Origin: Bacillota bacterium
GTDB taxonomy: Bacteria; Bacillota_I; Bacilli_A; Izemoplasmatales; UBA1188
DNA length: 64,000 bases
Direction: 5' to 3'
NCBI GenBank assembly: GCA_023410715.1
Contig: JAEYPN010000030.1
Location: 48,806-112,805 of the forward strand
Shown piece after piece: positions 5,290 to 44,416 of the stretch. A program made the position numbers and the translations under genes. The first letter of the stretch is position 1. Each line of letters begins with the position of its first letter. Under the pieces are notes generated by a model, which worked only from the letters and a program-made list of their open reading frames with translations, was not told the DNA's origin and searched no databases.

Positions 5290-5317
5290 TTTACATAAAA
5301 TATAATTATGATATAAT
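5290..5317 (+). promoter_or_regulatory. Sigma-A-type promoter of riboswitch operon 1
   Basis: TTTACA (5290-5295), 16 nt spacer, extended -10 TGaTATAAT (TATAAT 5312-5317). This places the TSS at about the 5' end of the aptamer. Confidence 0.6.
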
Positions 5318-5402: not shown

Positions 5403-5423
5403 TTTAGATAATAGTTTTTTTTA
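5394..5423 (+). terminator. Riboswitch expression-platform terminator, copy 1
   Basis: ACTATTATC-ttta-GATAATAGT hairpin followed by a T-run. Its 5' arm overlaps the 3' strand of the putative P1. Confidence 0.8.
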
Positions 5424-7665: not shown

Positions 7666-7682
7666 CTAGGAGGTGAATTTCC

Positions 7683-16600: not shown

Positions 16601-16616
16601 TAAATATCCATTATAA
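7683..16616 (+). CDS. Giant (2977 aa) secreted adhesin-like protein with a GLUG-motif beta-helix region and ten copies of the ~40-aa repeat
   Basis: AGGAGGTGA RBS and an N-terminal signal/TM segment. FTGTFDGQGFTITNL is followed by about 15 periodic G-G-(L/I)-(I/V)-G type turns (VGGLVGQGSG, IGGLIGLSD, VGGLIGTGT, VGGIIGKLT ...), which is typical of GLUG-domain adhesins. Repeat blocks lie at aa 1847-2179 and 2683-2760. No LPxTG or other obvious C-terminal anchor is visible. Confidence 0.8.
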   Translation: MTRKIKNVIKKTMVLVLSILTSFFITLQISETSNVKKVYGDGYSGDLYNPSYGSSFMNIDPSVANPSNYVSFSEFMEVTYGETQFVNGKIVITSPGIFTDEIITNEEQVVLDQYSQKKIVIGSADELYYFSYLCHMQYKNNNSNGNINIPRNYYMSLYYVLGDDIDYVDASRYMRLFIPVGDSVSKFTGTFDGQGFTITNLFLKPIESSDVYEESYGGLEYYSFFSETSSNAIIKDFGLINPTIIQTIAFNQMFYTSYVVGRNYGLVDHVYVIDDRGNSSGISAEGGFFISGLVSKNYGTFTNAYYSSRLISSTSVTEKTGSNPIIIDNFGSMSHVYFDRSILNEEFTVCSSNNACDVTNGYIIDATVSNFDPSTIVYNNTLIGLSTSQFQNETYFKSDNWFNNTSYGTSAQMRLHDTYPILKGFYYNSTYDAYEITDATDLVYMISIFSKASYYRNQKYILVNNLDMDQIGPKAYKGGETAFSGVLTSLPIKINETQYITNRGQNYNYPYYAIFNLKINVGSAFGNIYSYGLFAYLSGKIENIAIVNAEISPLDASANDFNYSIGIVAGKLLNGRISNVHVSGNITLKTKASTNAIGKISVGGLVGQGSGMIINSSASGIINGEVHEANNYMNSSSIGGLIGLSDNIIVTGSRSVINISGISFTSANAITQNITTYVGGLIGTGTTSDFNTSHNDGSITINENGFYNGNLYVGGIIGKLTQANAIISEITNRGKITVNFTNFGTKTYLMTTRISGVMSVQSALRNPEFYGVGNTGNIEIKNKNISSSEFTNTNASIDVKVAGVINANSTHIISKGLHNSGNITGDLAIISGVTGVISAENSTSTVYTDLSKSYNSGNLTLTTSNVITHHDIFVSGIAFGKYMVLDNLRNTGNISIKISHSSTLSLNASGSYKTFKVVGNFEEVSLNRNIANCYNEGKINLITENITDNSFKFNTYVSGICYKNDNRAIYSDASEESITANISKSGSLDNVLNTGEIYVNTYIYGMCVASGITSMNASLITNAFNIANIYVRNEGFAPSGDWGGSLFETAACGISYLLLNRYAQIKDSANAGSITAIEEVNTATNILASGIAGRNDVSETGATISNTSNNHFAKVMFAINYGQILAWNNAEASPTAPEQLTQGWFGLWSGGSNYEAKTKATGILASGVMSTVNVINYGNIYSPTLASGIFGYINVNLFTVSANQTYVANTINYGNIRRIIAKPSTTTSTGSFTAGNTTYYFTPSSSNLNNYFLGGAIGNIRTKENISGLSAFLEIFSTESFNINFSYLINFDQLIDMVGFNIKSASFSAVNALITTNSNDTSAEPFESLKPYAFSDAPATQTTNMGIFSSDFPLKNPPDTPEFKGIETNELIPEYISFIPYNKVNGKIRDIVFGTNVSEQNQNIYGIYALASTQGVVNGQYIPENFNWSGIDPEIGGEADSSWRGEEGNNLTIIFSGKMNQLSQSVSTAIFDLELVSTTDSTIKLKKPVIDLKNSTLTYYVSKNSKEYLTGWTSGELEQVILGKQKTKTEYVLASANNYNFGGVSNITNIRILHGTDIIKEDTTYYKNPVTVAETKIKNESNTLGRLILKNSGTNNYVPVGDYLLSGSSYVDIYDKYYAGTLDVEFISHTPYTISGFLQTHYFYQSKGSIIQKGLDQSIAKNFDILQPTSVTTWFSSSTYQLAFTSGTVVNKTNGPYSAKDSNFYVYAGARTDYAKTYVLVQYTYLDLSDPESEVIFVPNEKSAYKTNYNDGYKLAYGANLVQMDYNKETYSDWKDNLAYVPRYSGEFKSLTNGENLGKITVMAQDGETTSTYTIQIEYVEAQSIKDLDAVYVNNVALSPDWVLAGNQTGTTPNSIYDPVTKKWYIDQKNGYNGILGNEDKVNNEWVEIPDQKITNHWIFDSTTNKYYVDQPIYNGTLGNEDKVDGSFVLAVPQSSTTEHAIYDLQTGNYYLDQPVYNNILGVEDMVTNRWTNASKQDGSTLNSIYDSKTKTWYLDQPVSYNNILGDEDKINGSWVLADKQDGTTLYSIYDSTTTKWYLDQPVSYNGILDEEDKSYQYVLADVKNYIYSSSNGKWYLDQPVSYDGVLDEKDRVFQWVIADAQDGSTPHSIYDSATEIYYLDQPTTNGKLGDEDQVNGSWVLADYQDGTSLNTIYDNKTKKYYVDQIVSYNGVLGDEDKKVVVTSSTSSEIYYEIPSSIGKVNYKPGTNHLGSIRLSFKVYNFRDKTDLSDIITLYRYDSRTGQKVLVPLMNGDIINYTLIGGVVTNDNKNFDNLNKSWSYGTLDFELSLSQDLQGGLYYVYVSLGTDESTDYYIAFTKMKSPEPIVTELEYDGNSIIPEYENLDDETNSNRFITSYTSYIEFGKHYLEGVTDKSMYFDDLRTIVDVYYNEITGNNLPDYLTKLRISQYSTIESITFSLDSSSTASHHRYIITYTILAEDGLTRGTFIHYIEEMNVDVKIKETFINGNTVDAQNKVSFAREEAPLIHVEYGLTDIYNWQYFSCTSSNQTLEDSMYYINVDESFGFEIIFVEELDPGDYTFTLKYSALNVLIYEGNPSITSDDIYVSYNIVFEILEVTKKKNENSYLEAVKFVTDVIFTGLNTIIDNNLITPATYQNYLVNEQARKIVSLPSGIYYNEYKANNNRFWVIGQVQKTNLDSYMPTFTLPIGALVYRVEIGYLESANQDGTTAHSIYDSVTEKYYLDQPLPNLVLGDEDKVNGAWIIASSQDGTTPNSIYDFDTNKWYIDQAVYDGKLGKEDRIKEYLKGNGTIDSEDLRFDFNPLDEDNFNYVTYRVFAEAYIEGDETYGNMYTDYIVSVQDVSFNVKFDIVVEKDDSFNVNLNSEQLVVHISFVNYESGYVIDKNGNSVYVPYKDDTHIRTAMSMFSYLTSKDNKQVFINNQFSTTQAGYYRIDIELPDNLTYELSFASSTIVVDEDNKGFMVQASVIPKKYLLKIIIKANGNQSVDWGQHQETMDKYPL
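13221..14219 (+). repeat. Eight tandem copies of the ~40-aa WY(L/I/V)DQ...LG(D/N)EDK repeat inside the giant adhesin
   Basis: An example unit is QDGTTLYSIYDSTTTKWYLDQPVSYNGILDEEDK. The family is the same as at 5951-6658. Confidence 0.85.
15729..15962 (+). repeat. Two further copies of the ~40-aa repeat near the C-terminal part of the giant adhesin
   Basis: QDGTTAHSIYDSVTEKYYLDQPLPNLVLGDEDKVNGAWIIASS followed by QDGTTPNSIYDFDTNKWYIDQAVYDGKLGKEDRI. Confidence 0.8.
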
Positions 16617-16643
16617 AGGAATCAAGTTACAAGGAGAAAGATT

Positions 16644-17285
16644 ATGAAGGGTTTAAAAAAACTTTTTAAAAGTAAGAAAGGTATCTTTGCTATATCACTA
16701 ATGTTACTTGCAGTAGTGTTAGTGAGTGCTGGCGGATTATGGGCTTGGTTTACGCAAGAAGGTACTCAGAGTACTTTTACGTTTACTGCTGGTCAAGTTA
16801 AATATGAACTAGGCAATATTCCAACAACTGATGGAAACTTTAAACTTCCTGGTGATCCAGTTATGGTTTATGCTTTTAGTCTAACAAACAAATCAAATAT
16901 TGATACGAATGTTAGAATAGAAGCAACATATAAGATTACACCAGCTATCGGATCTACAGCTCCTGAATTAACAGGTATAATCGGAATAGGGAACGTCCTG
17001 ATTACTAGAATAACTGATGGTTGGTTTATAAAGGATGGATATTATTACCTAGGAACATCTGGTTCTGAAACTACTTTAACTGCTGTATCTGATATAGTAA
17101 ATGGCACGATTGTTGTTGAAAACTTTGTCACAACAATGGTTATTAATGGTGATGTAATTGGTAATGACTATATGGGTTCTACCCTCACGATTACATTTAA
17201 GTTTCAAGCCAAACAAGCAAATAATTTAACCTGGGAAGATTGTGCAACAAAAAATATTGATTTTACAACAGGTTTAGCAAAGTAA
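16644..17285 (+). CDS. TasA/camelysin-like fibre-subunit candidate (SipW-type signal peptide)
   Basis: 213 aa with a GGAGA RBS. The N-terminus ...LLAVVLVSAGGLWAWFTQEGTQSTFTFTAGQVKYEL is close to the TasA/CalY leader pattern. The body is Thr/Gly/Val-rich and looks beta-rich. A SipW-type peptidase gene starts 4 nt downstream. Confidence 0.65.
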   Translation: MKGLKKLFKSKKGIFAISLMLLAVVLVSAGGLWAWFTQEGTQSTFTFTAGQVKYELGNIPTTDGNFKLPGDPVMVYAFSLTNKSNIDTNVRIEATYKITPAIGSTAPELTGIIGIGNVLITRITDGWFIKDGYYYLGTSGSETTLTAVSDIVNGTIVVENFVTTMVINGDVIGNDYMGSTLTITFKFQAKQANNLTWEDCATKNIDFTTGLAK

Positions 17286-17289
17286 GAAT

Positions 17290-17787
17290 ATGATAAAAAA
17301 AATAGGTAAGATTATAACTAACGTTTTGATTATTGCAATTCTCTTTTTTTCGTTATTTACAATTATAATGGGATTAATTGGCTTTAAATGGGATGTTGTA
17401 TTATCTGGCTCTATGGAACCAGATATTCATGTTGGAAGCCTAAATTACCGGAAATATGTGTCATTTGAATCACTTAATATTGATGATGACGTTGTCTATA
17501 AATCTAAATCTAGTGGTGATTTAATCACCCATAGAATCATTGATATTGATTACGAAAAAAAGATAGTAGTTACTCAGGGTATTAATGGTAAGGATAGCGG
17601 GGCAGCAAAAGAAGAAGTTGATTATACAAGAATTGTCGGCAAGTCATATTTTTCGATTCCTTTAATTGGATACGTTGCATTTTATTTTAAAAAATATTTT
17701 GTGGCTATAATTCTATTTGTAATTGCAGCCTTATTAATATATCAAGCTATTAAATTATTTAAAACACCAACAAAAGAAGAAAACTAA
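17290..17787 (+). CDS. SipW-type (ER/archaeal-type, S26B) signal peptidase I, paralogue 1
   Basis: 165 aa with an N-terminal TM. It has the canonical VLSGSMEP catalytic Ser box, an ITHRI His box and a C-terminal TM. The usual KGDNN box reads TQGINGKD, so the Asp is absent. Confidence 0.75.
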   Translation: MIKKIGKIITNVLIIAILFFSLFTIIMGLIGFKWDVVLSGSMEPDIHVGSLNYRKYVSFESLNIDDDVVYKSKSSGDLITHRIIDIDYEKKIVVTQGINGKDSGAAKEEVDYTRIVGKSYFSIPLIGYVAFYFKKYFVAIILFVIAALLIYQAIKLFKTPTKEEN

Positions 17788-17788
17788 A

Positions 17789-20167
17789 ATGAAAGGAGTC
17801 TATGTTTTTATGAGAACAAAAAATAATAAACCACTTTTTGCATTATTTTTAGCTTTTGCATTTGGGCTCCTTTTAATTATTGGTTTCTTTTTAATTTTAG
17901 TTATGAATACTAATGATAAAAAATTAGGAGAAATGCTAAGAATTAATACTGATCAAAAATATACAATATTTTTTGATGATATTAATTTTAAAAGAGAAAA
18001 ATACATTGAAAATTATTTAACACTAAGTGATGGAATATTATCTAGAACAGAAGAACTATCAAATAAAAAATATTTAATAATTTCTGGTAAGCTAGCTTAT
18101 TTATATGATGATGGGATTGATGTTTATTATTACTTTGATAATCAAGTATTTGAAGTATTTGATGACGAAGAATTAAATAATATTTACTTGATTAATGATC
18201 AAGGGGAAATCTTATGTTCATATAAGGAAGTTAACTTTAGTTATTATTTTATCGAACTAAGAAAATATATAAGTGAATCTCGTACTAAGGAAATATTTAA
18301 CGCTATTTTAAAAACTAGACATGGTAGTGATGAAATCAGCGTAAATGGTAAAAAGGGCTTCATTATCTATAAATATGTTGATGAATTTCAAGCTAATATG
18401 ATTTTTGAATATCACAATATTAGAAGTGCAAAGTATGATGTACAAATTGTAACTTATACACTTGTATTTATTGTAATTATTTCTATCGTTTTACTTTGTA
18501 TTTACTTTATTTTGTATAAGATGATTATTAAGAAAACTAATGATCTTGATATTGCAAGACGAAATTCACAAAATCCTTATACATATATCATTAAGACTAA
18601 TAAAAGTGGCGTTTTTACTTTTCAAAACCGGAACTTTAGAACTGACTTTCATGGTAAATATAAAAAGTTATCAGACTTTGAATTAGATATTAATACAGAT
18701 ATTGATAGTATCGTTAAAAATCAAATACCATTTACAGTTAAATTAATAGATAACAGAAGTAGAGAACATTACCTACATTTTATTGTAGTTGATAATGTAA
18801 AAGAACTTGTTTTTATTGGTGAGAATTTATCGAAGATGCATAATAAAACTGGTATAGAGTCTTATCATAAAGTTGATGAATTAACTCAAGTTCCAAACAA
18901 AGAAGCATTTATTTCAGATATTGATGAACATATTATTGATAATAAAAAGGTTGAAAAAGCCGGTGTATTATTATTAAATATCAAGAAATTTAATAACATC
19001 AATAATTTATTTGGTCGTTATTTTGGCGACAAGATAATGATGGAATTTGTTAAGATGCTTGTTGAAATAATTGATGATAAAGGAAAAATATATCGTATAG
19101 AGGGCGATAATTACGCGATATTAATTAATCCTTTAGAAAATATTGATGAATGTAAGAAAATGGCCAGTTTAATAATTAAACGTTTTGAAAAACCAATAAA
19201 TTTCTTAAATAATGAAGTAGTTTTAGGTTGTAAAATTGGTGGTTATCTTATTATCAAAGAAAAGTACACCCCAGCCATTACAGCTTTAGAAATTATTGAT
19301 AAAGTATCCTTAGCGTTAAAAGAAGCTAAAAATGATAAGAACAATGATTTTATAATGTATGATAGTAACATTGAAACGATAAATCAAAAAGAGATTCAAA
19401 TGTTAGATGATATGGGCAAAGCCTTAAAAAAAGATGAGTTTGTGATGTTCTATCAAGCACAATATAATACAAAAATAAAAAAAATAGTAGGTTTTGAAGC
19501 TTTAATTAGATGGAATAACCCACTTTACAGAAACGTATCACCACAAAAATACATAAAATTAGCAGAGAAAACTGGAATGATAGTACCTCTAGGTATGCAT
19601 ATTGTTAAAGAGGTTTTAAGGTATGCTAAAAAAATAGTCAATGATATTGTCCATGTATCATTGAACGTTTCGCCAATTCAACTAATTCAGTCAGGATTTG
19701 TTAATGATTTTTTAGCGGAATATAATAAATATAGTTTTAAACCTGGCCAAATTGCTATTGAAATTACTGAATCATTTTTGATGGAAACATTACAAGAAGT
19801 GATTCAAAAATTAAGAATTATAAAAGAAAATGGTATAAAAATTTATATGGATGACTTTGGAACAGGTTATTCATCACTTCTATACCTAAAAGATTTACCA
19901 ATTGATGTAGTTAAACTTGATCAGCAATTTATTTCATTAATTGAAGTCGATGAGTCTTCAAAGCTTATTGTCAAAAAGATAATTGAAGTTGCAAAAGGAT
20001 TAAATTTGGATGTAGTAGCTGAAGGGGTTGAGTCTGAATCCCAAAGCAAGATTTTACTTGAAAATGGCTGTGATATTATCCAGGGATATTTAATCTCTCG
20101 GCCAATACCAGAGCTTGATGCTACAGCTTTGCTTAACAACATCAATAAACAAAAAGGAGTTGATTAA
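17789..20167 (+). CDS. Membrane sensor protein with degenerate GGDEF and intact EAL domains (predicted c-di-GMP phosphodiesterase)
   Basis: 792 aa with two TM segments bracketing a ~190-aa extracytoplasmic region. The GGDEF site reads R-I-E-G-D-N-Y. The EAL domain has all canonical boxes: GFEALIRW, LNVSP, IEITES, MDDFGTGYSS, VKLD, AEGVES and IQGY. The start could instead be ATG 17810. Confidence 0.85.
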   Translation: MKGVYVFMRTKNNKPLFALFLAFAFGLLLIIGFFLILVMNTNDKKLGEMLRINTDQKYTIFFDDINFKREKYIENYLTLSDGILSRTEELSNKKYLIISGKLAYLYDDGIDVYYYFDNQVFEVFDDEELNNIYLINDQGEILCSYKEVNFSYYFIELRKYISESRTKEIFNAILKTRHGSDEISVNGKKGFIIYKYVDEFQANMIFEYHNIRSAKYDVQIVTYTLVFIVIISIVLLCIYFILYKMIIKKTNDLDIARRNSQNPYTYIIKTNKSGVFTFQNRNFRTDFHGKYKKLSDFELDINTDIDSIVKNQIPFTVKLIDNRSREHYLHFIVVDNVKELVFIGENLSKMHNKTGIESYHKVDELTQVPNKEAFISDIDEHIIDNKKVEKAGVLLLNIKKFNNINNLFGRYFGDKIMMEFVKMLVEIIDDKGKIYRIEGDNYAILINPLENIDECKKMASLIIKRFEKPINFLNNEVVLGCKIGGYLIIKEKYTPAITALEIIDKVSLALKEAKNDKNNDFIMYDSNIETINQKEIQMLDDMGKALKKDEFVMFYQAQYNTKIKKIVGFEALIRWNNPLYRNVSPQKYIKLAEKTGMIVPLGMHIVKEVLRYAKKIVNDIVHVSLNVSPIQLIQSGFVNDFLAEYNKYSFKPGQIAIEITESFLMETLQEVIQKLRIIKENGIKIYMDDFGTGYSSLLYLKDLPIDVVKLDQQFISLIEVDESSKLIVKKIIEVAKGLNLDVVAEGVESESQSKILLENGCDIIQGYLISRPIPELDATALLNNINKQKGVD

Positions 20168-20172
20168 ACAAC

Positions 20173-21627
20173 ATGTTAATTTTAGAATCTATTATGCTTG
20201 ATATTTTAGTTACCATTTTCATGTTACTTATAATATGTGTTTTAATACTCTTCCTTTACAGAAGTATAAAAAAAGAAAACTTCAGATACTATAATGAAAA
20301 TATTAGAGAGATTGATGGGATTAAGTCAAAGAGAGATTTTGTGAGTGATGTTTCTGATACGATTGCCAGATTTGGTAATATTGCTAGATTCTCTTTAATG
20401 AAGGTATCAACAGAAGGACTTGAAAATATTAATGAAAAATATGGTATAAAGGATGGAGACAGAACTATTCAGGAAATATGTACTAGAATGCTTAAAATTG
20501 TTCCTGAAAAATCAGTTATAGGTCGAACAGATAATACAGAATTTACAATCTGGATAAAAAATATTTTAAGTTTAGACCAAATTACTGTGTTAGCTGAAGA
20601 TATAATTGAATCAATTGAGAGACCAATTGCCGTTCAAAATGGCGAAGTAAACGTTGAATGTAAGATTGGAATTGTAAAATTTCCCGATCATGGGTTTAAT
20701 TATAAAACATTAATCACTAACCTAAATACTGCCTGTTATGTGGCAATTAAAGACACTGGAGCAAAGTTTGCAATCTTTAGTGAAAAAATTAAAGATGAAG
20801 AAGCTGAAAATGCTAAGTATTTCTTAGAATTAAAAGATGCTATTAAAAGGGAACAATTTACTTTATACTATCAGCCAATTGTTTCCTTAACTAAAAAGAA
20901 AATTGTAGCGGTAGAGTCCTTGCTTAGATGGAATCATCCAACATTAGGTGTTTTAGGACCCCATGAATTTATTGATGTTTTAGAAAAATCAGGCGATATA
21001 AACTGGGTTGGCTTTTGGGGGATTCAGGAATTAATAAAAAAACAACAGGAATTTAAAAAAACAATACCAAACTTTGATGTGGTATTTACTTTTAATCTTT
21101 CGCCAAAACAGCTACAATCACCTACGATTGTCGATGAGTTTAGAAAAATACTTAGAAAGTTTAATCAAAATCCGGAAACAATCTGTTTAGAAATAGTTGA
21201 ATTTGCGATGTTCCAAAAATATGGAATTATTTTAGAAAATGTTGAAAAATTAAAAGAGCTTGGCTTTAAGATTGCTATTGATGACCTAGGATTAGAATAT
21301 GCTACGTTATCAAAGCTTGATAAGATGCCAATTGATTATATCAAACTTGATAAATCATTTATTTCTCAAGCTAAAGAGAATTTTATGAATGTCAAGATTA
21401 CTGAAATGTTGATTGATATTACTAAAGATAAACAAATTAAGATTGTTGCTGAAGCAATTGAAAACGAAGAAATGATTAGCTACGTTCGTAATTTAGGCAT
21501 TAATTTAGTTCAGGGATATTGCTTCTCAAGCCCAGTAAATTCCCAAGATATTAAACAGCTAATTCTTAAAAATAATTATAAAGAGATAATAGATAGCACG
21601 GAAAAAATTAAAGCGTCGACAGAATAA
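20173..21627 (+). CDS. Membrane protein with degenerate GGDEF and divergent EAL domains (phosphodiesterase or c-di-GMP sensor)
   Basis: 484 aa with an N-terminal TM. The GGDEF site reads R-T-D-N-T-E-F. The EAL boxes are partly altered: VESLLRW, FNLSP, LEIVEF, IDDLGLEYAT (for DDFGTGYSS), IKLD, AEAIEN and VQGY. Confidence 0.75.
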   Translation: MLILESIMLDILVTIFMLLIICVLILFLYRSIKKENFRYYNENIREIDGIKSKRDFVSDVSDTIARFGNIARFSLMKVSTEGLENINEKYGIKDGDRTIQEICTRMLKIVPEKSVIGRTDNTEFTIWIKNILSLDQITVLAEDIIESIERPIAVQNGEVNVECKIGIVKFPDHGFNYKTLITNLNTACYVAIKDTGAKFAIFSEKIKDEEAENAKYFLELKDAIKREQFTLYYQPIVSLTKKKIVAVESLLRWNHPTLGVLGPHEFIDVLEKSGDINWVGFWGIQELIKKQQEFKKTIPNFDVVFTFNLSPKQLQSPTIVDEFRKILRKFNQNPETICLEIVEFAMFQKYGIILENVEKLKELGFKIAIDDLGLEYATLSKLDKMPIDYIKLDKSFISQAKENFMNVKITEMLIDITKDKQIKIVAEAIENEEMISYVRNLGINLVQGYCFSSPVNSQDIKQLILKNNYKEIIDSTEKIKASTE

Positions 21628-21666: not shown

Positions 21667-21695
21667 TTGACAATTTTCTATATATATAATAGAAT
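21667..21695 (+). promoter_or_regulatory. Sigma-A-type promoter of riboswitch operon 2
   Basis: TTGACA (21667-21672), 17 nt spacer, TAGAAT (21690-21695). A TATAAT at 21685-21690 would leave only a 12-nt spacer. Confidence 0.55.
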
Positions 21696-21701: not shown

Positions 21702-21781
21702 GTAATATAAATGGCAAACTTGTTGAAAAACAAGGACGCAAAGCTATAGGGCCTATACATAGGCAGCCAGTTGCTATTATC
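21702..21781 (+). promoter_or_regulatory. c-di-GMP-I (GEMM-I) riboswitch aptamer, copy 2
   Basis: GGCAAAC-(CTTGTT GAAA AACAAG)-GACGCAAAGCTATAGGGCC...AGGCAGCCAGTTGCTATTATC. It shares long identical stretches with copy 1, such as GGACGCAAAGCTATAGGGCCT. Confidence 0.85.
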
Positions 21782-21803
21782 TCTTTCGGATAATAGTTTT
21801 TTA
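21774..21803 (+). terminator. Riboswitch expression-platform terminator, copy 2
   Basis: CTATTATC-tctttcg-GATAATAG hairpin followed by TTTTTT. The stem sequence matches copy 1. Confidence 0.8.
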
Positions 21804-21847
21804 TTTTAAAAAGCTATTATTAACTGAATGAAAGGGGGGTAATGGCC

Positions 21848-22525
21848 ATGAGATTATCTGAAATTAAAGCAGCTAAAAGAATTTTAACAATAAAAAAATT
21901 TACAAGAATTGGCTTAAGTATAACTGCAGCTATATCAGTAATCTTTTCATTTATTGCTCTTTACGCTAAAAATGCTGGTAATTATGCTATAAAACTAGAA
22001 GATTCTCGTTCTAGATCAATGTCATTATCCGAAACTTATGATTTTGCAAAACCGGTTACAAGTCTTACAGCCAAAGGTATTAACAGTATGCTTGATATTG
22101 ATGGTAATTATCTTAACATGGAAACCATATCAAGGGTTGATGGTTCAAATAACCTTGGCAATTTCTATATTGCTTATACATTTTATTTAAAGAATGTAGG
22201 AGAAGAAACTTACGATTATGAGATGAAATTCTTTATTGAAGATGTAACCAAAGGAGTCGATAGTGCTTTAAGACTTCGTATTTATAAAGATGGAGTTGAT
22301 ACCATTTATGCTAAACTAGCAAAAGATGGTAATCCAGAACCTGGTACTATCGCATTTAAGTCCGATGTAGTCGCTGCTGATGAAGTTTATAAAAACTTTA
22401 AACCAGGCGAAATACATAAATATACGATTGTCATATATTTACATGGTCCAGATCCAGAATGTGTTAATGACATTATGTCTGGTATCATTAAAGCCAGTAT
22501 GCAATTTAGTGTTATAGGTCTATAA
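21848..22525 (+). CDS. Membrane-anchored or secreted beta-rich protein, first gene of riboswitch operon 2
   Basis: The ORF track starts at 21842. I prefer ATG 21848, which lies 8 nt after the GGGGGG RBS. A basic N-terminus and one hydrophobic segment (...ISVIFSFIALYAKNAGNYAIKLED) precede a beta-rich body. No family recognised. Confidence 0.5.
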   Translation: MRLSEIKAAKRILTIKKFTRIGLSITAAISVIFSFIALYAKNAGNYAIKLEDSRSRSMSLSETYDFAKPVTSLTAKGINSMLDIDGNYLNMETISRVDGSNNLGNFYIAYTFYLKNVGEETYDYEMKFFIEDVTKGVDSALRLRIYKDGVDTIYAKLAKDGNPEPGTIAFKSDVVAADEVYKNFKPGEIHKYTIVIYLHGPDPECVNDIMSGIIKASMQFSVIGL

Positions 22526-22556
22526 GAAAATTATAAATAAATTAAGGAGAAGAGAA

Positions 22557-23885
22557 ATGAAAGGATTTAACAAGAAATTATTAGTTGCATCATTTACATT
22601 ATTATTTGCAGTTGTTGCAACAGTTGCATCAACATTTGCATGGTTCACAATGAATACAACATCAAGTGTATCTCAATTTGACTTGCAAGTGACAGCCGGC
22701 GAAGGTATGATGATATCTTTAAACGGTCAAGAAGGTACTTATAAGAGTACAATTACAAGAGAAGAAATTCTAGCTTTCTTATTAAAAGGAACTGATAACT
22801 CTGGATGGTTAGTTGATACTAACAGTAAAAGAACAAGACTATTAGACCCAATTACATCAGTTAATGGAACGACTTTCTTAAACTTAAAAGGATTAGTAAC
22901 TGGTACTAATAATGTTTTTGATAACTTAACATTCTACTTTAGAAGCCAAAATAAACTTGATGTTAGACTTCAAACAGCATCTGTTACAGGTCCAAACGCT
23001 GTACTAGATCTTGAAGTTAAAAAAACTGACAAAGTTGGTATTTGGGCAGATAATAATACTTTTAAATCTGATATTTTTGATTATTCAGAAAAAGAAGATC
23101 CTGAACTAGAAAACTTAAGATTAACTACTACTTTAGCTAACGCTATTAGATATTCATTTGAACAAAAATCAGGTTCAGATGCAAACACTACTAAAGTTAA
23201 TGTATTTGATCTTAACTCACAAAAAGGTTTTGGTGGAAGAGACGTTTTAGTTTATAAGTCAGGAACAGATAAACAAGATGTTTATGATTATTTAGTTGAA
23301 AACAACTTAGCTTATGCATACTTAAATAAAGTTTCTCCAGAAGATTTATATGAAAATGGTACAACTATTAACTTTGGTGCAATTAAAAATACTGATCAAA
23401 TTTTCTTACCTACTGAAGATGTAACATACAATTTATATAATGAAGTTAAGTATGGAGAAATCTATCAAGAACAATTAGATAGAATAACTAATGCTCAAAA
23501 TGCGATTAACTTACTAAACAAAGAAGGAGAACTTACTCCAGCTGAACAAGGAACATTAGCTGCAATTATTGATTATTTTAAAAATGATGGTATTACAAGC
23601 GATAGTACAGTTTCTGCTTATGAAGCTATTATAAATACTGCCAATATAGCAATTAATGGCCTTTCTGATAATGATAAGAAAGTATTAACAACACATTATT
23701 CTTATCCAACACTTCTTACTTTAAGTGATACAGCAGATGGTAATGGATGGTATACAGGTTCAATTCAATTAAGAGTTTGGTGCGAAGGTTGGGACGCTGA
23801 CTGCTTTGACGTATTATTTGAAGAAAAAGTATATATTAATTTTACATTCGTAGGTACTAAAATAGAAAGTGCACCTGCAATCTAA
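22557..23885 (+). CDS. Large TasA-like secreted protein (442 aa) with a SipW-type signal peptide, candidate major subunit
   Basis: Strong AAGGAG RBS. The N-terminus MKGFNKKLLVASFTLLFAVVATVASTFAWFTMNTTSSVSQFDLQVTAG fits the TasA-like pattern. A strong terminator follows the gene. Confidence 0.6.
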   Translation: MKGFNKKLLVASFTLLFAVVATVASTFAWFTMNTTSSVSQFDLQVTAGEGMMISLNGQEGTYKSTITREEILAFLLKGTDNSGWLVDTNSKRTRLLDPITSVNGTTFLNLKGLVTGTNNVFDNLTFYFRSQNKLDVRLQTASVTGPNAVLDLEVKKTDKVGIWADNNTFKSDIFDYSEKEDPELENLRLTTTLANAIRYSFEQKSGSDANTTKVNVFDLNSQKGFGGRDVLVYKSGTDKQDVYDYLVENNLAYAYLNKVSPEDLYENGTTINFGAIKNTDQIFLPTEDVTYNLYNEVKYGEIYQEQLDRITNAQNAINLLNKEGELTPAEQGTLAAIIDYFKNDGITSDSTVSAYEAIINTANIAINGLSDNDKKVLTTHYSYPTLLTLSDTADGNGWYTGSIQLRVWCEGWDADCFDVLFEEKVYINFTFVGTKIESAPAI

Positions 23886-23922
23886 CATTTTAATATAATT
23901 TTTAATAACTAAATATTTATAT

Positions 23923-23953
23923 AAGACCACAAAGTTTTTTGTGGTCTTATTTT
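23923..23953 (+). terminator. Rho-independent terminator inside the locus, after the 442-aa subunit gene
   Basis: AAGACCACAAA-gtttt-TTTGTGGTCTT perfect hairpin followed by a T-rich tail. Confidence 0.8.
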
Positions 23954-23960
23954 AGAAATA

Positions 23961-23969
23961 TGGTATAAT
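23961..23969 (+). promoter_or_regulatory. Extended -10 promoter element (TGgTATAAT)
   Basis: TG at 23961-62 and TATAAT at 23964-69, about 35-45 nt upstream of the next ORF. No good -35 element is seen. Confidence 0.45.
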
Positions 23970-24003
23970 TTATACATATATATCAAAATTTAGCAAAGGT
24001 TGT

Positions 24004-24729
24004 GTGAATAAAATGGAGAATGTTACTAATAAACCAAAAGGCAAGAAAATATTTAGCATAATTTTTAATGTAATCTTTTATATTATTATTGTGTTAATAA
24101 TTGTTTTTGCATTTCTAAGTGTCGTTCAGAAAAAAAATAACGGAATATCCTTTGTTTTTGGTTATTCACCAGTTCGGGTTTTAACAAAATCCATGGTTGG
24201 AGAAAATGAAGATTCATTTAATAAAAATGATGTAATAATTGTAAAGAAGTTTACTGATTCTGATGAAATTATAGTTGGTAAGACAATTATTACTTTTTAT
24301 GCTAATATAAATGGGATTACTGCTCCGAATTCACATAGAGTCATAGATATGCTTGTCATTGATGGGAAAATATGCTATCAGACAAAAGGTGATAATAATC
24401 CAGAACCTGACCGTCTTCTTGTGAACGAAGAAGATATAATTGGTATCTATGTAAATAAGATTGAAAAAGTTGGTTATCCAATCGAAAAGTTACAAACAAA
24501 AACAGGATTTTTACTTTCAGTTGTCTTACCTTCTGTTTTGTTTTTAATTTATCAAATGTTTGTTTTTGGTAAAATTGTTATAGATTCTAAGGTAGAAAAA
24601 GAAAAAGCTATACTTGAAGAACAAAAAATTCAAAATGAAATTAAAGAGAAAGAAGCTTTAGAATTAAAGAAGAGATTAGAGGAATTAGAAAAAAAATTAG
24701 CTGCAAGTGACTATGCAAAAGATAAGTAA
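24004..24729 (+). CDS. SipW-type signal peptidase I, paralogue 2, with a C-terminal TM and charged coiled-coil tail
   Basis: The Ser box reads VLTKSMVG. The His box is NSHRVID and the QTKGDNNPEPD box is intact. A C-terminal TM is followed by a Glu/Lys-rich tail. The start is ambiguous between GTG 24004 and ATG 24013. Confidence 0.7.
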   Translation: MNKMENVTNKPKGKKIFSIIFNVIFYIIIVLIIVFAFLSVVQKKNNGISFVFGYSPVRVLTKSMVGENEDSFNKNDVIIVKKFTDSDEIIVGKTIITFYANINGITAPNSHRVIDMLVIDGKICYQTKGDNNPEPDRLLVNEEDIIGIYVNKIEKVGYPIEKLQTKTGFLLSVVLPSVLFLIYQMFVFGKIVIDSKVEKEKAILEEQKIQNEIKEKEALELKKRLEELEKKLAASDYAKDK

Positions 24730-24740
24730 GAGGTGGGTTT

Positions 24741-26285
24741 ATGAGTGCTTTTTCAAAATACTACATTGATTTTTTACTCGAATTTATCAGAGATGTAAAA
24801 AACTTTTTTGTTGATTTGTTTTTAGTCTTCTGGCAAATAATCTTAAATATTGTTGATTACTTTGATATGATGATTGATCAATCAAGTGATTTTGGCATTG
24901 TTGGTTGGTTATTTGCTGTAATTATTACACTCATTAATTTAGCTTTAGCTGTATTTATAGGAATCAGATTATGGCAATTTTTACGTCGATATTTTATCTT
25001 TAGAAAAAGGCAATTAGAAAAAGAAGAGTTGCTTGAAGAAGTGGCAATGCTTAATGAGCAAGTTGCTAATTTAGTTGATGAAAAGAATAATATTATGAAT
25101 TTAAAACTTTCTGCTTTAAGTGCTAAAGGTTTTGATATTAGTAAAATTAACCAAGGTTCTGGAACTGCTGAAAATAATGCAAGCGAAAAATCTGCTAATT
25201 CTCGGTTTATAAAGTTAACTATAGTCGATGAAATTTATCGTAATAAGAATACCAAAATTACAATGGGTCAAGATGACGCTATTGGTTTAACTGAACTTGT
25301 TGAACGATTTGTTAACTTCTCTGCAAGTCAACTTAAACTTTACTATACGAAAAAAACAATCTCAGTATTTTTTGCAGGCTTAGCTACATCGAAGATTATG
25401 ATCCTTGAAGGTATATCTGGTACAGGTAAAACCTCGCTACCTTATGCCATGGGTAAATTTTTTAAAACGCAAACACAAATTATTTCAGTTCAGCCATCGT
25501 GGCGTGACCGTGCTGAAATTTTAGGATATCTAAATGAGTTTACTAAGAGATTTGTTGAAACTGACTTCTTAAAATGTGTTTATGAAGTTACTTATCGTGA
25601 AGATATTAACTTTATAATTTTAGATGAGATGAACTTAGCACGTATTGAGTATTATTTCGCTGACTTTTTATCAATGATGGAAATGCCAGATATTTCTGAA
25701 TGGAAAATAGACTTAGTTCCAAGTTCACTTGCATCAGACCCTGTTAATTTAATTGAAGGAAAGTTACTCGTTCCTCAAAATGTCTGGTTTATTGGAACAG
25801 CAAATAAGGATGACTCAACATTCACAATTACCGATAAGGTTTATGACCGTGCGACAACACTAGAATTTAGATCTAAGGGTGAATATTTTGATGCGCCATA
25901 TACGGAAAATCTTAATATGAGTTATGATTACTTAAATGAACTATTCCAACAAGCGTTAGATAAGATTCATGTTTCACCACTTGTGACAGATAATTTAAAT
26001 AAACTTGATCAATTTATTCAACAAAAATTTAAACTGGCATTTGGTAATCGTATTTTAAAACAAATTAATACCTTTATTCCAGTTTACGTTGCTTGCGGTG
26101 GAAATGAAGTAGATGGGTTAGACTATTTATTTGCTCATAAAATACTTAGAAAGTTTGAAAGCTTAAACATTGGTTTTATGACTGATGAGGTTAATCAATT
26201 AATTTTATTAATTCAAAAATTATTTGGAAAAAATAAATTTACTGAATCAATTCAGTATTTACAATCATTAATGAAAATGATGTAA
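24741..26285 (+). CDS. Membrane-anchored McrB-like AAA+ (AAA_5 family) NTPase
   Basis: AGAGGTGG RBS. The N-terminal ~80 aa are hydrophobic (TM around GWLFAVIITLINLALAVFIGI) and are followed by a coiled-coil segment. Walker A is EGISGTGKTS and Walker B is FIILDEMNLARIEYYFADFLSMME. WFIGTANKDDSTF corresponds to the McrB GTMNTADRS box. Confidence 0.7.
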   Translation: MSAFSKYYIDFLLEFIRDVKNFFVDLFLVFWQIILNIVDYFDMMIDQSSDFGIVGWLFAVIITLINLALAVFIGIRLWQFLRRYFIFRKRQLEKEELLEEVAMLNEQVANLVDEKNNIMNLKLSALSAKGFDISKINQGSGTAENNASEKSANSRFIKLTIVDEIYRNKNTKITMGQDDAIGLTELVERFVNFSASQLKLYYTKKTISVFFAGLATSKIMILEGISGTGKTSLPYAMGKFFKTQTQIISVQPSWRDRAEILGYLNEFTKRFVETDFLKCVYEVTYREDINFIILDEMNLARIEYYFADFLSMMEMPDISEWKIDLVPSSLASDPVNLIEGKLLVPQNVWFIGTANKDDSTFTITDKVYDRATTLEFRSKGEYFDAPYTENLNMSYDYLNELFQQALDKIHVSPLVTDNLNKLDQFIQQKFKLAFGNRILKQINTFIPVYVACGGNEVDGLDYLFAHKILRKFESLNIGFMTDEVNQLILLIQKLFGKNKFTESIQYLQSLMKMM

Positions 26286-26301
26286 GATTGCAGGTGAAAA
26301 A

Positions 26302-28032
26302 ATGGGGAAAAGTAGTTTAGAAAAAATATATACAAGTATTGATGCTAGCTTAAATAAAAATCTTAATAGTGATGCCCCATTTTCTTTGGCATTTTCTACA
26401 GCTCTTGAAACCGGTAAAAATGAAATTAATCAGAAACAAACTGAAGAAACAAAAGTTTTTGATACTAGCTGGATTGATGCGATTGATGAAGCCTTACCAC
26501 ATATTGAAAAAATCATTTTAAATCCTCGTAAATTTATCAAAGAAATTGATGAAATAGTACCTGTTGAGCTTGCAAAAAAGACAAACAAAGATTCTGTCCG
26601 TCATTTAGCTCAACACACGCAGTTTATTAGATCAATTGAAGATGAAAATGTTACGCCTAATAAGATTTTAACAACTTATAAAGATGAAAATTTAGCAATT
26701 TATGAAAATCGTTTTATTAAGACACTAATTGATAAACTTAATATATTTGTTGAAAGAAGATATGAAGCGTTAATTCAAAACCAGGAATCATTTATTAAGA
26801 ATGATTTAAAATTAAAATCGGATTTTAATTACTTATCATCTTTTATTAATGTTGAATTAATTGTTAATCTCAAAGAAGATTTAAAGGATTCAGAATTAGG
26901 TAAAAAAAATAAAGCAATTATTGAGCGTGCTTTCAAAGTAAAAGATTATGTGAGAAAGCTTAAAGGCTCACGCTTTATGCAAGAGCTTGAAGGTGCAAAA
27001 AAAGTTACACCACCAATTATGAAAACAAATATCATAATGAAACAGCCAGATTATAGAGCAGCTTATAAACTTTGGACCCAAATTGAATCATATTCAGTTT
27101 TAGGATACGATATTGATATTAAAGAAAAAGATTTACCGATTGATGATGAATATTTAGATGATATCTATCATTTAATTGAGTTATCAGCGTTAACCTTGAT
27201 TTATAATCAACAAACAAGAACAACAGATTATGACGAGATACCAGCAAATAATAAAAAATTGAAAAGGCCAAAAAATGGTCAATGGTATAGTGATCAGATT
27301 GATTTTGTTAATGGCGAAATAAAACTTGAAGATAACGAAATTAATGAATATTATTATCAAAAATCAAAAAATAATGTTAGAACTAAATTATCAACATTAG
27401 TAAGAAGTGGCTATTCATATGAGGATGCTTTTCGTAATGTAATTAAACAAATGATGAACATTAATAATGTAATTATCAATAATGGGCTTTTAAATGCCGA
27501 TTTTAATCATGTTTTAGATGAAGAAGAAGATAATCTAGATGATAATAAATTTATGGATATTGACGTTGATATTAATAAGGAAACATTAGAGAAAAAATTA
27601 GAAATACTAGAACGTCAAACCAAATTACTTCTTATTGCTGAAGAGTTAAAAAGAAATGATTTAGAAACATTAGATAGACAACTGGAGAACTTAAATAAAC
27701 AAAAATTTGCAATTAACTGTGAATTGAGTAATCGAGAATTAAATGATCAAATTGCTAATGAAATTTTATTAGAAGAAAGTTTCCAAAATGAAAGAATTAG
27801 AAGAATTAAACCTCGCGAGCGGGATATCACGAAACATTTAGAGTTGTTAAAGAAAGTTCAGGATGCTGGCTTGGCCCGTCAAAAACGACTTGAAGCGGAA
27901 AAATTACATGAAAAAGAGCGCTTTGAAAAATTAAAACTTTTAGAACAGCAAAAAAAAGCAGAGCAGAAAGAAAAAAACAAGGAAAAGAAAGCTCATCTTA
28001 AAGAAAAAAATAAGAATAAAGGGAAAAAGTAA
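26302..28032 (+). CDS. DUF2357-like (McrC N-terminal-like) protein with a long C-terminal coiled-coil, Lys-rich tail
   Basis: 576 aa immediately 3' of the McrB-like gene. Segments ...VRHLAQHTQFI...NLAIYENRFIKTLIDKL... and QPDYRAAYKLW resemble, from memory, DUF2357-type partners of McrB-like ATPases. I see no PD-(D/E)xK nuclease motif. The C-terminal ~170 aa are a heptad-like, Glu/Lys-rich region. Confidence 0.4.
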   Translation: MGKSSLEKIYTSIDASLNKNLNSDAPFSLAFSTALETGKNEINQKQTEETKVFDTSWIDAIDEALPHIEKIILNPRKFIKEIDEIVPVELAKKTNKDSVRHLAQHTQFIRSIEDENVTPNKILTTYKDENLAIYENRFIKTLIDKLNIFVERRYEALIQNQESFIKNDLKLKSDFNYLSSFINVELIVNLKEDLKDSELGKKNKAIIERAFKVKDYVRKLKGSRFMQELEGAKKVTPPIMKTNIIMKQPDYRAAYKLWTQIESYSVLGYDIDIKEKDLPIDDEYLDDIYHLIELSALTLIYNQQTRTTDYDEIPANNKKLKRPKNGQWYSDQIDFVNGEIKLEDNEINEYYYQKSKNNVRTKLSTLVRSGYSYEDAFRNVIKQMMNINNVIINNGLLNADFNHVLDEEEDNLDDNKFMDIDVDINKETLEKKLEILERQTKLLLIAEELKRNDLETLDRQLENLNKQKFAINCELSNRELNDQIANEILLEESFQNERIRRIKPRERDITKHLELLKKVQDAGLARQKRLEAEKLHEKERFEKLKLLEQQKKAEQKEKNKEKKAHLKEKNKNKGKK

Positions 28033-28052
28033 TAAAAACAGGAGGTGGTAAC

Positions 28053-28703
28053 GTGAAAAATCTAGGTATTTATCGAAGACTTATATTAGGCGTTATCACT
28101 ATATTTTTTGCTATTTTAGCGATTATTGGCGGAACATATGCTTGGTACACAGAAAGTGTAAGAGCGAATGTTGAGGACTTAGTTTTACAGGTAAGTGGAA
28201 GAGAAGCCATAGTTAAAATATATTTAGGTCAAGATAGTAATCGTGATGGAATACTTGATTTAGGCGTAGATAATTTGCCAATTTATACAGAAATAGTAAA
28301 TGCAATATATTTTAATTATGATGAGAATGGTGGAAATTTAGAGCCTGGGAATGTCTTTACCTTTAGAATTGTTGTTAAAAATGCTGATGATTTAATGAAT
28401 ATTAGAATAACTGATATTATTGAATTTAATTCTAATTATAATAATTCCAACGAAATAAAAAAAGCAATGCTTCTTAATTATATTAATAATTATCAAGAAG
28501 ATTTATTTGACGTAAGTAATTTATCACTTGAAGATTTTATGAATATAAATAATGGATTTTTTGTTAAAGATTTAGATACTAATCCAATGATGGAATATAT
28601 ATTTGATTTTACTTTGACTTTTGATGGAGATGTAAGCGGAAATGAAGGTCAAGCAGGATACTTATCGATAAAAAAAATTCGGATAAATTTTAGTAAGGAT
28701 TAA
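28053..28703 (+). CDS. TasA/camelysin-like secreted protein (SipW-type signal peptide)
   Basis: GTG start behind an AGGAGGTGG RBS. The N-terminus ...FAILAIIGGTYAWYTESVRANVEDLVLQVSG fits the pattern. A SipW-type peptidase gene starts 2 nt downstream. Confidence 0.6.
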   Translation: MKNLGIYRRLILGVITIFFAILAIIGGTYAWYTESVRANVEDLVLQVSGREAIVKIYLGQDSNRDGILDLGVDNLPIYTEIVNAIYFNYDENGGNLEPGNVFTFRIVVKNADDLMNIRITDIIEFNSNYNNSNEIKKAMLLNYINNYQEDLFDVSNLSLEDFMNINNGFFVKDLDTNPMMEYIFDFTLTFDGDVSGNEGQAGYLSIKKIRINFSKD

Positions 28704-28705
28704 AT

Positions 28706-37732: not shown

Positions 37733-37739
37733 ACTCATA

Positions 37740-44410: not shown

Positions 44411-44416
44411 TGTTAC

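What the first reader, a model, noticed from the sequence alone, without database searches (positions are those of the whole stretch)
21702..21803. Second GEMM-I riboswitch is a paralogous copy of the whole regulatory cassette, terminator included
Copies 1 and 2 share identical blocks: GGCAAACTT, GGACGCAAAGCTATAGGGCCT, AGCCAGTT, CTATTATCT and GATAATAGTTTTTT. They differ mainly in the P2 stem, where the changes are compensatory (CTTACC/GATAAG versus CTTGTT/AACAAG), and in loop lengths. Compensatory change in P2 supports a real, selected RNA structure. It also suggests the cassette was duplicated to put two operons under one signal. The P1 pairing of copy 2 (TAATA 21703-07 with TATTA 21775-79, plus weaker pairs) looks weaker than in copy 1, so the two operons may have different c-di-GMP thresholds.
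Basis: seen in the sequence. Interest (0 to 1): 0.65.

Follow-up and report, generated by a model that had tools for sequence, protein, structure and literature searches.

The report
Two ordinary c-di-GMP ON riboswitches
The flagged stretch is a genuine but ordinary c-di-GMP-sensing riboswitch with its own promoter and terminator, one of two in the window that probably switch on two cell-surface fibre/adhesin operons when c-di-GMP rises; related bacteria have riboswitches at the same two places, so a recent duplication did not create this control.

Summary
Window 21702-21803 (+) is a complete leader: a c-di-GMP class I (GEMM-I) aptamer followed by an intrinsic terminator. A second such leader lies at 5324-5423.

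Rfam ranks both best as the rare "GGC" variant, at 62.2 and 59.5 bits against a cut-off of 59. But the nucleotide that defines that variant is the canonical A in both copies. The ligand-contact triad is G/A/C, so these are standard c-di-GMP-I aptamers.

- **Shared blocks:** all five exist. Three are family-wide core, found in at least 119 genome stretches, so they say nothing about paralogy. Only P1 (GTAATA/TATTAT) and the terminator arms (CTATTATC/GATAATAG) are specific to the two copies.
- **P2 compensation:** real, with two double changes plus one repaired C•A mismatch. Covariation across 33 related aptamers supports it.
- **"Weaker P1 in copy 2":** wrong. The P1 helices are identical, and copy 1 is the less stable aptamer.
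- **Logic:** the P1 3' strand lies inside the terminator's 5' arm, so ligand binding should block termination (ON switch). This is inferred, not tested.
- **Evolution:** syntenic Acholeplasmataceae loci carry one to four c-di-GMP-I riboswitches at both positions. Riboswitch control is therefore ancestral, and at most the switching module was copied between leaders.

Verdict: a new member of a known kind, of low interest.

The parts
21667..21695 (+). Sigma-70-like promoter of leader 2 (TTGACA, 17-nt spacer, TAGAAT). The predicted transcription start falls at about G21702, the first base of P1.
   Evidence: 11 of 12 hexamer matches. The start site is inferred from spacing only.
21702..21780 (+). 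c-di-GMP-I aptamer, copy 2. P1 is 21702-21707 with 21775-21780. P2 is 21719-21734 with a GAAA loop. P3 is 21742-21772. Ligand-contact equivalents are G21713 (Vc2 G20), A21740 (A47) and C21774 (C92).
   Evidence: The key positions come from PMC11218506 and PMC5888326.
21773..21803 (+). Intrinsic terminator of leader 2. The stem is 21773-21782 with 21788-21797, followed by a T6 run at 21797-21802. Its 5' arm contains the whole P1 3' strand and the C92-equivalent.
   Evidence: (-9.2 kcal/mol, z = -6.5).
21804..21850 (+). Short 5' UTR with ribosome-binding site AAAGGGGGG (21831-21839) and the start codon ATG at 21848 of the first gene of operon 2.
   Evidence: One search shows that the 225-aa product starting at 21848 is the form held in public collections.
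21848..29266 (+). Operon 2. It encodes a 225-aa membrane protein and a 442-aa protein with a SipW-type signal peptide. These are followed by a SipW signal peptidase (24004-24729) and a 514-aa P-loop protein. Last come a 576-aa protein, a 216-aa TasA/camelysin-like protein and a second SipW (28706-29266).
5290..5317 (+). Promoter of leader 1 (TTTACA, 16-nt spacer, extended TG-n-TATAAT). The predicted start falls at about G5324.
5324..5401 (+). c-di-GMP-I aptamer, copy 1. P1 is 5324-5329 with 5396-5401. P2 is 5340-5355 and has a C5344•A5351 mismatch. Ligand-contact equivalents are G5334, A5361 and C5395.
5394..5423 (+). Intrinsic terminator of leader 1. The stem is 5394-5402 with 5407-5415, followed by a T8 run at 5415-5422.
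   Evidence: (-7.8 kcal/mol, z = -4.7).
5501..21627 (+). Operon 1. It encodes 484-aa and 237-aa proteins, a 2977-aa giant surface protein and a camelysin/TasA-like protein (Peptidase_M73). These are followed by a SipW signal peptidase and two GGDEF-EAL proteins (17789-20167 and 20173-21627). The EAL motifs look intact and the GGDEF motifs are degenerate.

Best explanation
Window 21702-21803 is the transcribed leader of an operon for secreted or surface proteins, and it works as a transcriptional ON riboswitch for c-di-GMP.

**Proposed mechanism**
- A promoter at 21667-21695 starts transcription at the first base of P1.
- The 79-nt aptamer is a standard class I (GEMM-I) c-di-GMP aptamer with the canonical G/A/C ligand-contact triad.
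- The 3' strand of P1 (UAUUAU) and the ligand-pairing C lie inside the 5' arm of a weak AU-rich terminator hairpin, which is followed by a U6 run.
- Without ligand, P1 (about -1 kcal/mol) cannot compete. The terminator forms and transcription stops before the first gene.
- With c-di-GMP bound, P1 is locked and the terminator's 5' arm is unavailable. The polymerase then reads into the operon.

**The second leader and the feedback loop**
- A second leader at 5324-5423 uses the same switching module. It controls the upstream operon: giant surface protein, TasA/camelysin-like protein, SipW and two EAL phosphodiesterase-type proteins.
- High c-di-GMP would therefore switch on both matrix/adhesin operons.
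- Through the EAL proteins it would also feed back negatively on its own signal.

**Evolution**
- Riboswitch control at both positions is ancestral in this Acholeplasmataceae-like lineage.
- The identical P1/terminator module in the two leaders most likely reflects copying or gene conversion of the leader between the two positions.
- A three-way pairing constraint on the shared strand would then have helped preserve it.

**Shown:** aptamer identity, structure, covariation, overlap of P1 with the terminator, synteny.
**Inferred:** the ligand, the ON direction, the transcription start, the feedback loop, the conversion event.
For: - **Aptamer identity.** Rfam hits have E-values of 2.8e-12 and 1.6e-11, and two further same-clan matches reached their own gathering scores. 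The contact positions are G21713/A21740/C21774 and G5334/A5361/C5395. These are the canonical residues G20/A47/C92 named in PMC11218506 and PMC5888326.
- **Structure.** On 33 related aptamers, 88.5% of cells pair, against at most 41% when partners are slid. All six P2 pairs show double changes, and 0 of 500 shuffles reach the covariation score.
- **Terminators.**. The ligand-free minimum-energy fold of both leaders contains the terminator and not P1.
- **Conserved ON design.** In 18 of 21 related units, a hairpin followed by a U-run uses the aptamer's 3' strand as its 5' arm, although the sequences differ.
- **Precedent.** Bc2 is a c-di-GMP-I ON switch upstream of an adhesin gene (PMC11218506).
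- **Gene content.**
- **Synteny at both positions.**
- **Module sharing.** Apart from the two window leaders, the same terminator arms were found only in the last aptamer of the operon-1 orthologues L120-L122.
Against: - No binding or termination assay was possible.
- The terminators are weak, with two G-C pairs each and energies of -7 to -9 kcal/mol. The generic terminator scan missed them.
- The best-scoring Rfam family is formally the GGC variant, not RF01051.
- Some homologous operon-2 loci (L124, L129-L132) have no riboswitch.
- The aptamer identity between the two copies (84%) barely exceeds that to unrelated genomes (83%, 80%). The case for copying therefore rests on about 22 nt of P1 and terminator sequence.
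- No terminator was seen after the last gene of operon 1, so read-through from operon 1 into leader 2 cannot be excluded.
Confidence: 0.8

Rival explanations
1. The two aptamers belong to the c-di-GMP-I-GGC variant class (RF03167) and sense a ligand other than c-di-GMP.
For: RF03167 is the best-scoring Rfam family for both copies, at 62.2 and 59.5 bits against a gathering score of 59.
Against: - The only difference in the conserved core between the two Rfam consensus sequences is GACGCGAA (RF03167) versus GACGCAAA (RF01051). Both window copies have the A (A21740, A5361).
- All 31 related aptamers scanned with the same core are called RF01051.
- The RF03167 scores are only just above its cut-off. 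That model probably wins because its P3 is short, like the window's P3. This last point is an inference.
- The neighbouring genes include c-di-GMP turnover genes.
Confidence: 0.04
2. A recent duplication of the whole cassette, terminator included, brought a previously unregulated second operon under c-di-GMP control, and different P1 strengths give the two copies different thresholds.
For: The two leaders are reciprocal best matches and have identical P1 and terminator arms.
Against: - Position 2 carries c-di-GMP-I riboswitches in at least six other genomes with the same gene order: L034, L099, L006, L072, L116 and L126.
- The P1 helices are identical.
- The two leaders differ at about 16% of positions, and their flanks do not align.
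- The operon proteins are not close paralogues.
Confidence: 0.1
3. No copying took place between the leaders. Both retain an ancestral P1/terminator module, preserved because the shared strand must pair with two partners, while other lineages diverged.
For: - The same terminator arms occur in operon-1 orthologues whose proteins are only 33-36% identical.
- The three-way pairing constraint is visible in the sequence itself.
Against: It requires loss of the module at both positions in many lineages: L034, L099, L072, L006, L116, L126, L128 and L101 all have other modules. That is less parsimonious than a single conversion event.
Confidence: 0.25
4. The element is an OFF switch, acts on translation, or is a decayed aptamer with no regulatory role.
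For: - Many class I c-di-GMP riboswitches are OFF switches; Bc1 is an example (PMC11218506).
- The terminators are weak.
Against: - There is no sequence between P1 and the terminator that could serve as an anti-terminator.
- The ribosome-binding sites lie 30 to 75 nt beyond the T-run and do not pair with the aptamer.
- Every core position is intact, and both copies keep the same design.
Confidence: 0.06

Closest known systems
c-di-GMP-I (GEMM-I) riboswitch, Rfam RF01051; the structural prototype is Vibrio cholerae Vc2
   Same: It has the same three-helix architecture and a GAAA tetraloop on P2. The core sequences GGCAAAC, GACGCAAAGC and AGCCAG are conserved. The ligand contacts G20, A47 and C92 are all present.
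   Different: P3 is truncated: the distal stem of the RF01051 consensus is missing, as in other Acholeplasmataceae-type aptamers. P1 is only six A-U or G-U pairs. Rfam's clan competition narrowly prefers RF03167.
c-di-GMP-I-GGC variant, Rfam RF03167
   Same: It is the best-scoring model, and it has a similarly short P3 with a large loop.
   Different: The defining A47-to-G change is absent in both copies, so they are not members.
Bc2, the c-di-GMP-I ON riboswitch upstream of the collagen-adhesion gene cap in Bacillus thuringiensis (PMC11218506)
   Same: It is a class I aptamer that activates transcription of a surface adhesin gene when c-di-GMP is high.
   Different: The host lineage and the sequence of the expression platform differ. 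The ON direction is inferred here and has not been measured.
Tandem c-di-GMP-I riboswitches: 347 doublets and 12 triplets counted in PMC9481103, plus the B. thuringiensis triple-tandem
   Same: Orthologous positions in related genomes hold 2 to 4 tandem units of the same aptamer type.
   Different: The window has single units at two places about 16 kb apart, each with its own promoter and terminator. It is not a tandem array.

Membership tests
c-di-GMP-I riboswitch (RF01051 / GEMM-I) | The covariance-model score reaches the family's gathering score. | tested here: met
   One search reports two lower-scoring overlapping same-clan matches that reached their own gathering scores but were hidden by the clan filter. 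That these are RF01051 (cut-off 35) is inferred, because the score itself is not shown. Model R1, built mainly from RF01051-classified relatives, scores the copies at 92.1 and 85.5 bits, but both copies were in its seed.
c-di-GMP-I riboswitch (RF01051 / GEMM-I) | The ligand-contact nucleotides are equivalent to Vc2 G20, A47 and C92. | tested here: met
   These are G21713, A21740 and C21774 in copy 2, and G5334, A5361 and C5395 in copy 1. The positions are named in PMC11218506 and PMC5888326.
c-di-GMP-I riboswitch (RF01051 / GEMM-I) | P1, P2 and P3 helices supported by covariation, with a GNRA tetraloop on P2. | tested here: met
   88.5% of cells pair, P2 has double changes in 6 of 6 pairs, and 0 of 500 shuffles reach the covariation score. 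Both copies have a GAAA loop. P1 pairs in only 63.6% of cells, partly because of register shifts in the alignment.
c-di-GMP-I riboswitch (RF01051 / GEMM-I) | Selective binding of c-di-GMP. | not testable with these tools
   This needs in-line probing, ITC or a gel-shift assay.
c-di-GMP-I-GGC variant (RF03167) | The score reaches the gathering score of 59 bits. | tested here: met
   62.2 and 59.5 bits, so only marginally.
c-di-GMP-I-GGC variant (RF03167) | G at the position equivalent to Vc2 A47 (consensus GACGCGAA). | tested here: not met
   Both copies read GACGCAAA. The consensus sequences are compared. The meaning of the name "GGC" comes from my own recollection of Weinberg et al. 2017, which could not be opened.
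c-AMP-GMP riboswitch (GEMM-Ib) | A instead of G at the position equivalent to Vc2 G20. | tested here: not met
   Both copies have G there (G21713 and G5334). The role of this position is described in PMC9481103.
Transcriptional ON riboswitch with an intrinsic terminator | A hairpin followed by a U-run, whose 5' arm cannot form at the same time as the ligand-stabilised P1. | tested here: met
   P1 3' strand 21775-21780 lies inside terminator arm 21773-21782, and 5396-5401 lies inside 5394-5402. The U-runs are 6 and 8 nt long.
Transcriptional ON riboswitch with an intrinsic terminator | Ligand-dependent read-through. | not testable with these tools
   This needs single-round in vitro transcription or reporter assays.

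The most novel reading that the evidence does not exclude
The two leaders may be the single-unit form of a conserved Acholeplasmataceae regulon. In that regulon, arrays of one to four c-di-GMP-I ON switches gate a TasA/SipW-like fibre system and a giant surface protein in wall-less or near-wall-less bacteria, and EAL phosphodiesterases inside the regulated operon provide negative feedback. Within this regulon, the 22-nt switching module (P1 plus terminator arms) would have been moved between two non-adjacent leaders by gene conversion. Expression platforms would then be exchanged as modules, independently of the aptamer and of the genes they control.
Probability: 0.3. Interest if true: 0.4.

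Novelty: new member of a known kind. Interest (0 to 1): 0.22.

Why it matters
As a riboswitch it adds little, because class I c-di-GMP riboswitches that turn on adhesin genes are well described. Three points are modestly useful.

1. **Annotation caution.** Rfam's clan competition labels these aptamers as the orphan "GGC" variant although they carry the canonical A. Automated counts of variant riboswitches can therefore be inflated by short-P3 canonical aptamers.
2. **A candidate c-di-GMP regulon.** It points to a conserved, c-di-GMP-gated surface-fibre and giant-protein regulon with built-in phosphodiesterases in Acholeplasmataceae. My literature search found no paper that mentions Acholeplasma together with c-di-GMP and riboswitches.
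3. **Slow-evolving switch strand.** A switching strand that must pair with two partners (the P1 5' strand and the terminator 3' arm) evolves very slowly. Its conservation can mimic recent duplication.

Tried and rejected
- **Genome scan too generic.** It still showed that these blocks are family-wide and supplied the Acholeplasmataceae relatives.\n- **Exact-protein look-ups failed.** Look-ups for the first gene of operon 2 (227-aa and 225-aa forms) and for P0001 returned no contig. The cluster look-up showed that the proteins are singletons from an unnamed 313-kb NCBI/ENA contig.\n- **Variant-class paper unavailable.** Weinberg et al. 2017 (PNAS), which defines the GGC variant, and Smith et al. 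2009 could not be opened. I inferred the variant's definition by comparing the two Rfam consensus sequences.\n- **Generic terminator scan.** It found nothing because it requires at least three G-C pairs. Folding and shuffles were used instead.\n- **MAFFT identities misleading.** The MAFFT-based identities understated the similarity of copy 1 to copy 2 because of a 1-nt register shift in J1/2. They were replaced by pairwise alignments.\n- **L123.** This metagenome hit is a chance match inside GC-rich sequence and was discarded.\n- **RF01051 score.** The RF01051 score of the window copies could not be displayed because of the tool's clan filter.\n- **Operon duplication.** I considered and rejected duplication of the whole operon as the source of the two leaders, because the proteins share only signal-peptide-level similarity.

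Full report
**What is in the sequence**

Rfam at gathering thresholds reports two matches of the c-di-GMP-I clan in the 64-kb window. One is at 21704-21779 (+; 62.2 bits, E=2.8e-12). The other is at 5325-5400 (+; 59.5 bits, E=1.6e-11). A covariance model built here from 33 related aptamers, run with filters off, finds only these two: 92.1 and 85.5 bits, with the next best at 15.7 bits. Both copies were in that model's seed, so this result only shows that there is no third copy.

The motif CTATTATC-N3-9-GATAATAG occurs exactly twice in the window and never in 100 shuffles. Each copy is preceded by a strong sigma-70-like promoter: TTGACA-17-TAGAAT at 21667-21695 and TTTACA-16-TGnTATAAT at 5290-5317. 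By spacing, transcription would start at the first base of P1. This is an inference.

Each copy is followed by a hairpin and a T-run that fold much better than shuffled sequence: -9.2 kcal/mol (z = -6.5) and -7.8 kcal/mol (z = -4.7).

**Which family**

The best Rfam model is formally RF03167, the "c-di-GMP-I-GGC" variant, and only just above its cut-off of 59 bits. I compared the two consensus sequences printed by cmscan. The only core difference is GACGCGAA in RF03167 versus GACGCAAA in RF01051. This is the position equivalent to A47 of the V. cholerae Vc2 aptamer. G20, A47 and C92 are the residues that contact the ligand (PMC11218506, PMC5888326).

Both window copies carry the canonical A (A21740, A5361). 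They also carry G at the G20 position (G21713, G5334) and C at the C92 position (C21774, C5395). The defining feature of the GGC variant is therefore tested and not met, and the aptamers are standard c-di-GMP-I. All 31 related aptamers with the same core that I scanned are called RF01051, at 50-68 bits. The RF03167 model probably wins here because it has a short P3, like the window copies; that is an inference. The reading of "GGC" as positions 20/47/92 rests on my own memory of Weinberg et al. 2017, which could not be opened.

**Structure and covariation**

- A5343-U5352 becomes G21722-C21731.
- C5345-G5350 becomes U21724-A21729.
- Copy 1 has a C5344•A5351 mismatch where copy 2 has U21723-A21730.

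I took 33 aptamers from the window, from Acholeplasmataceae genomes and from metagenomes, and imposed the P1/P2/P3 structure on the alignment. It pairs in 88.5% of cells, against at most 41% when partners are slid by one to three columns. All six P2 pairs show changes on both sides. None of 500 shuffles reaches the observed covariation score. The structure is real, as expected for a well-known family.

**The P1 claim is wrong**

Both copies have the same six-pair P1, GUAAUA/UAUUAU, with a duplex energy of -0.9 kcal/mol. The differences lie elsewhere, and they make copy 1 the weaker aptamer, not copy 2.
- The P2 hairpin is 0.0 kcal/mol in copy 1 and -4.1 in copy 2.
- Distal P3 is -4.0 in copy 1 and -6.0 in copy 2.
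- The J1/2 linker is one nucleotide shorter in copy 1, so Rfam's alignment puts its P1 out of register.
- The terminator stem is -7.3 in copy 1 and -8.7 in copy 2.

Whether these differences change ligand thresholds cannot be decided by computation.

**How it most likely works**

The P1 3' strand (21775-21780; 5396-5401) and the C92-equivalent lie entirely inside the 5' arm of the terminator (21773-21782; 5394-5402). No other sequence sits between the aptamer and the terminator. In the ligand-free minimum-energy folds, P2, P3 and the terminator form, and P1 does not. Ligand-stabilised P1 and the terminator are therefore mutually exclusive, which predicts that c-di-GMP causes read-through. This would be an ON switch.

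The same design recurs in 18 of 21 related units: a hairpin plus U-run whose 5' arm is the aptamer's 3' strand. It recurs even though the sequences differ. A c-di-GMP-I ON switch upstream of an adhesin gene is already documented in Bc2 (PMC11218506). The ON direction here remains inferred.

**What is regulated**

Leader 1 precedes nine kinds of product in this order:
- 484-aa and 237-aa proteins;
- a 2977-aa giant protein;
- a camelysin/TasA-like protein (Peptidase_M73);
- a SipW-type signal peptidase;
- two GGDEF-EAL proteins.

In the 792-aa protein the EAL motifs are intact (EAL, DDFGTGYSS, EGVE, QGY), while its GGDEF motif is degenerate (EGDNY). The second protein reads ESL/DDLG/EAIE in the EAL domain and DNTEF in place of GGDEF (read directly). 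An ON switch driving phosphodiesterases suggests negative feedback; this too is inferred.

Leader 2 begins 40 nt after the stop codon of the second EAL gene. It precedes a 225-aa membrane protein and proteins with SipW-cognate signal peptides. It also precedes two more SipW peptidases and a conserved P-loop protein paired with a DUF2357-like protein.

**Origin of the two copies**

The proteins of the two operons are not close paralogues. Similarity between the leaders stops at the T-run, and the promoter spacers do not align.

Three of the five "identical blocks" are family-wide core. The pattern GGCAAAC...GGACGCAAAGCTATAGG matched at least 119 stretches from many phyla. With pairwise alignment, copy 1 and copy 2 are reciprocal nearest neighbours at 84%. 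But L111 (83%) and L090 (80%), from unrelated genomes, are nearly as close. What is specific to the pair is P1 plus the terminator arms.

Related loci are decisive for the evolutionary reading. Protein homologues and the nearest aptamers point to Acholeplasmataceae, and the window's G+C content is 28%.

- **Position 2.** In L034, L099 and L116, two GGDEF-EAL genes are followed by three, three and two riboswitches, and then by the homologue of the 225-aa gene. In L072 and L006, the giant-protein gene is followed by four and three riboswitches, and then by the same gene. L126 has one riboswitch in front of an operon with the same gene order.
- **Position 1.** L120, L121 and L122 are orthologues of operon 1, with the 237-aa protein 36% identical, the giant protein 34% identical and the same gene order. 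They carry three tandem aptamers. L101 carries one.

Riboswitch control at both positions therefore predates the window genome. Some operon-2 homologues (L124, L129-L132) lack a riboswitch.

Most relatives use other P1/terminator sequences. Only the last aptamer of L120-L122, at position 1, has the window's terminator arms.

The most economical reading is that the switching module, or the whole roughly 100-nt leader, was copied from the position-1 leader to position 2 in the window's lineage. The shared strand must pair with both the P1 5' strand and the terminator 3' arm, so it evolves slowly. Retention of an ancestral module at both positions is the main alternative, which I put at about 0.25.

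**Verdict**

This is a correctly spotted, real and functional-looking riboswitch cassette of a well-known class. I rate novelty as a new member of a known kind, with low interest.

Noticed in passing
L072:3425-3876; L034:4675-4993; L099:768-1088; L006:699-1020; L116:5698-5856: At the position orthologous to window leader 2, Acholeplasmataceae genomes carry 2 to 4 tandem c-di-GMP-I riboswitches, most with their own terminator. The four-unit array in L072 exceeds the doublets and triplets counted in PMC9481103.
   Followed up: partly
L121:444-760 (also L120 and L122): Orthologues of operon 1 have three tandem aptamers 25-30 nt apart. Only the last is followed by a terminator with a U-run, so three aptamers appear to share one expression platform.
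   Followed up: partly
window 21789-21821: The 3' arm of terminator 2 plus its U-run can pair with a downstream AAAAAGCUAUUAUU. This contains a second copy of GCTATTAT at 21813-21820. The result is a 15-bp hairpin in read-through transcripts. Leader 1 has no such feature, and the role is unknown.
   Followed up: partly
window 5501-6955 and 7683-16616: A repeat of about 37 aa (WY[IL]DQ..NG.LG.EDKVNG.WV) is shared by the 484-aa protein and the 2977-aa giant protein, at 39-54% identity between repeats. No Pfam family matches it.
   Followed up: no
window 17290-17787, 24004-24729, 28706-29266: Three SipW-type signal peptidase I genes lie within 12 kb. Several neighbouring proteins have SipW-cognate (TasA/camelysin-like) signal peptides.
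   Followed up: partly
window 24741-28032: A 514-aa P-loop protein (Walker A motif GISGTGKTS) is the best-conserved protein of operon 2, 48-55% identical in L126, L034 and L101. It is paired with a 576-aa protein whose L126 homologue weakly matches DUF2357. This looks like a McrBC-type pair inside a surface-protein operon.
   Followed up: no
window 17789-21627: Two GGDEF-EAL proteins with degenerate GGDEF motifs and apparently intact EAL motifs lie at the end of the riboswitch-controlled operon 1. This suggests phosphodiesterase-mediated negative feedback on c-di-GMP. No terminator was seen between them and leader 2.
   Followed up: partly
window 37737-37940 and 44416-44491: There is a T-box leader (141.4 bits) and a ribosomal protein L21 leader (41.5 bits), both typical of Bacillota and their relatives.
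   Followed up: no
window 21842-21850: The longest ORF of the first gene of operon 2 starts at ATG 21842. The ribosome-binding-site spacing and the public protein record both support ATG 21848, giving a 225-aa product.
   Followed up: yes
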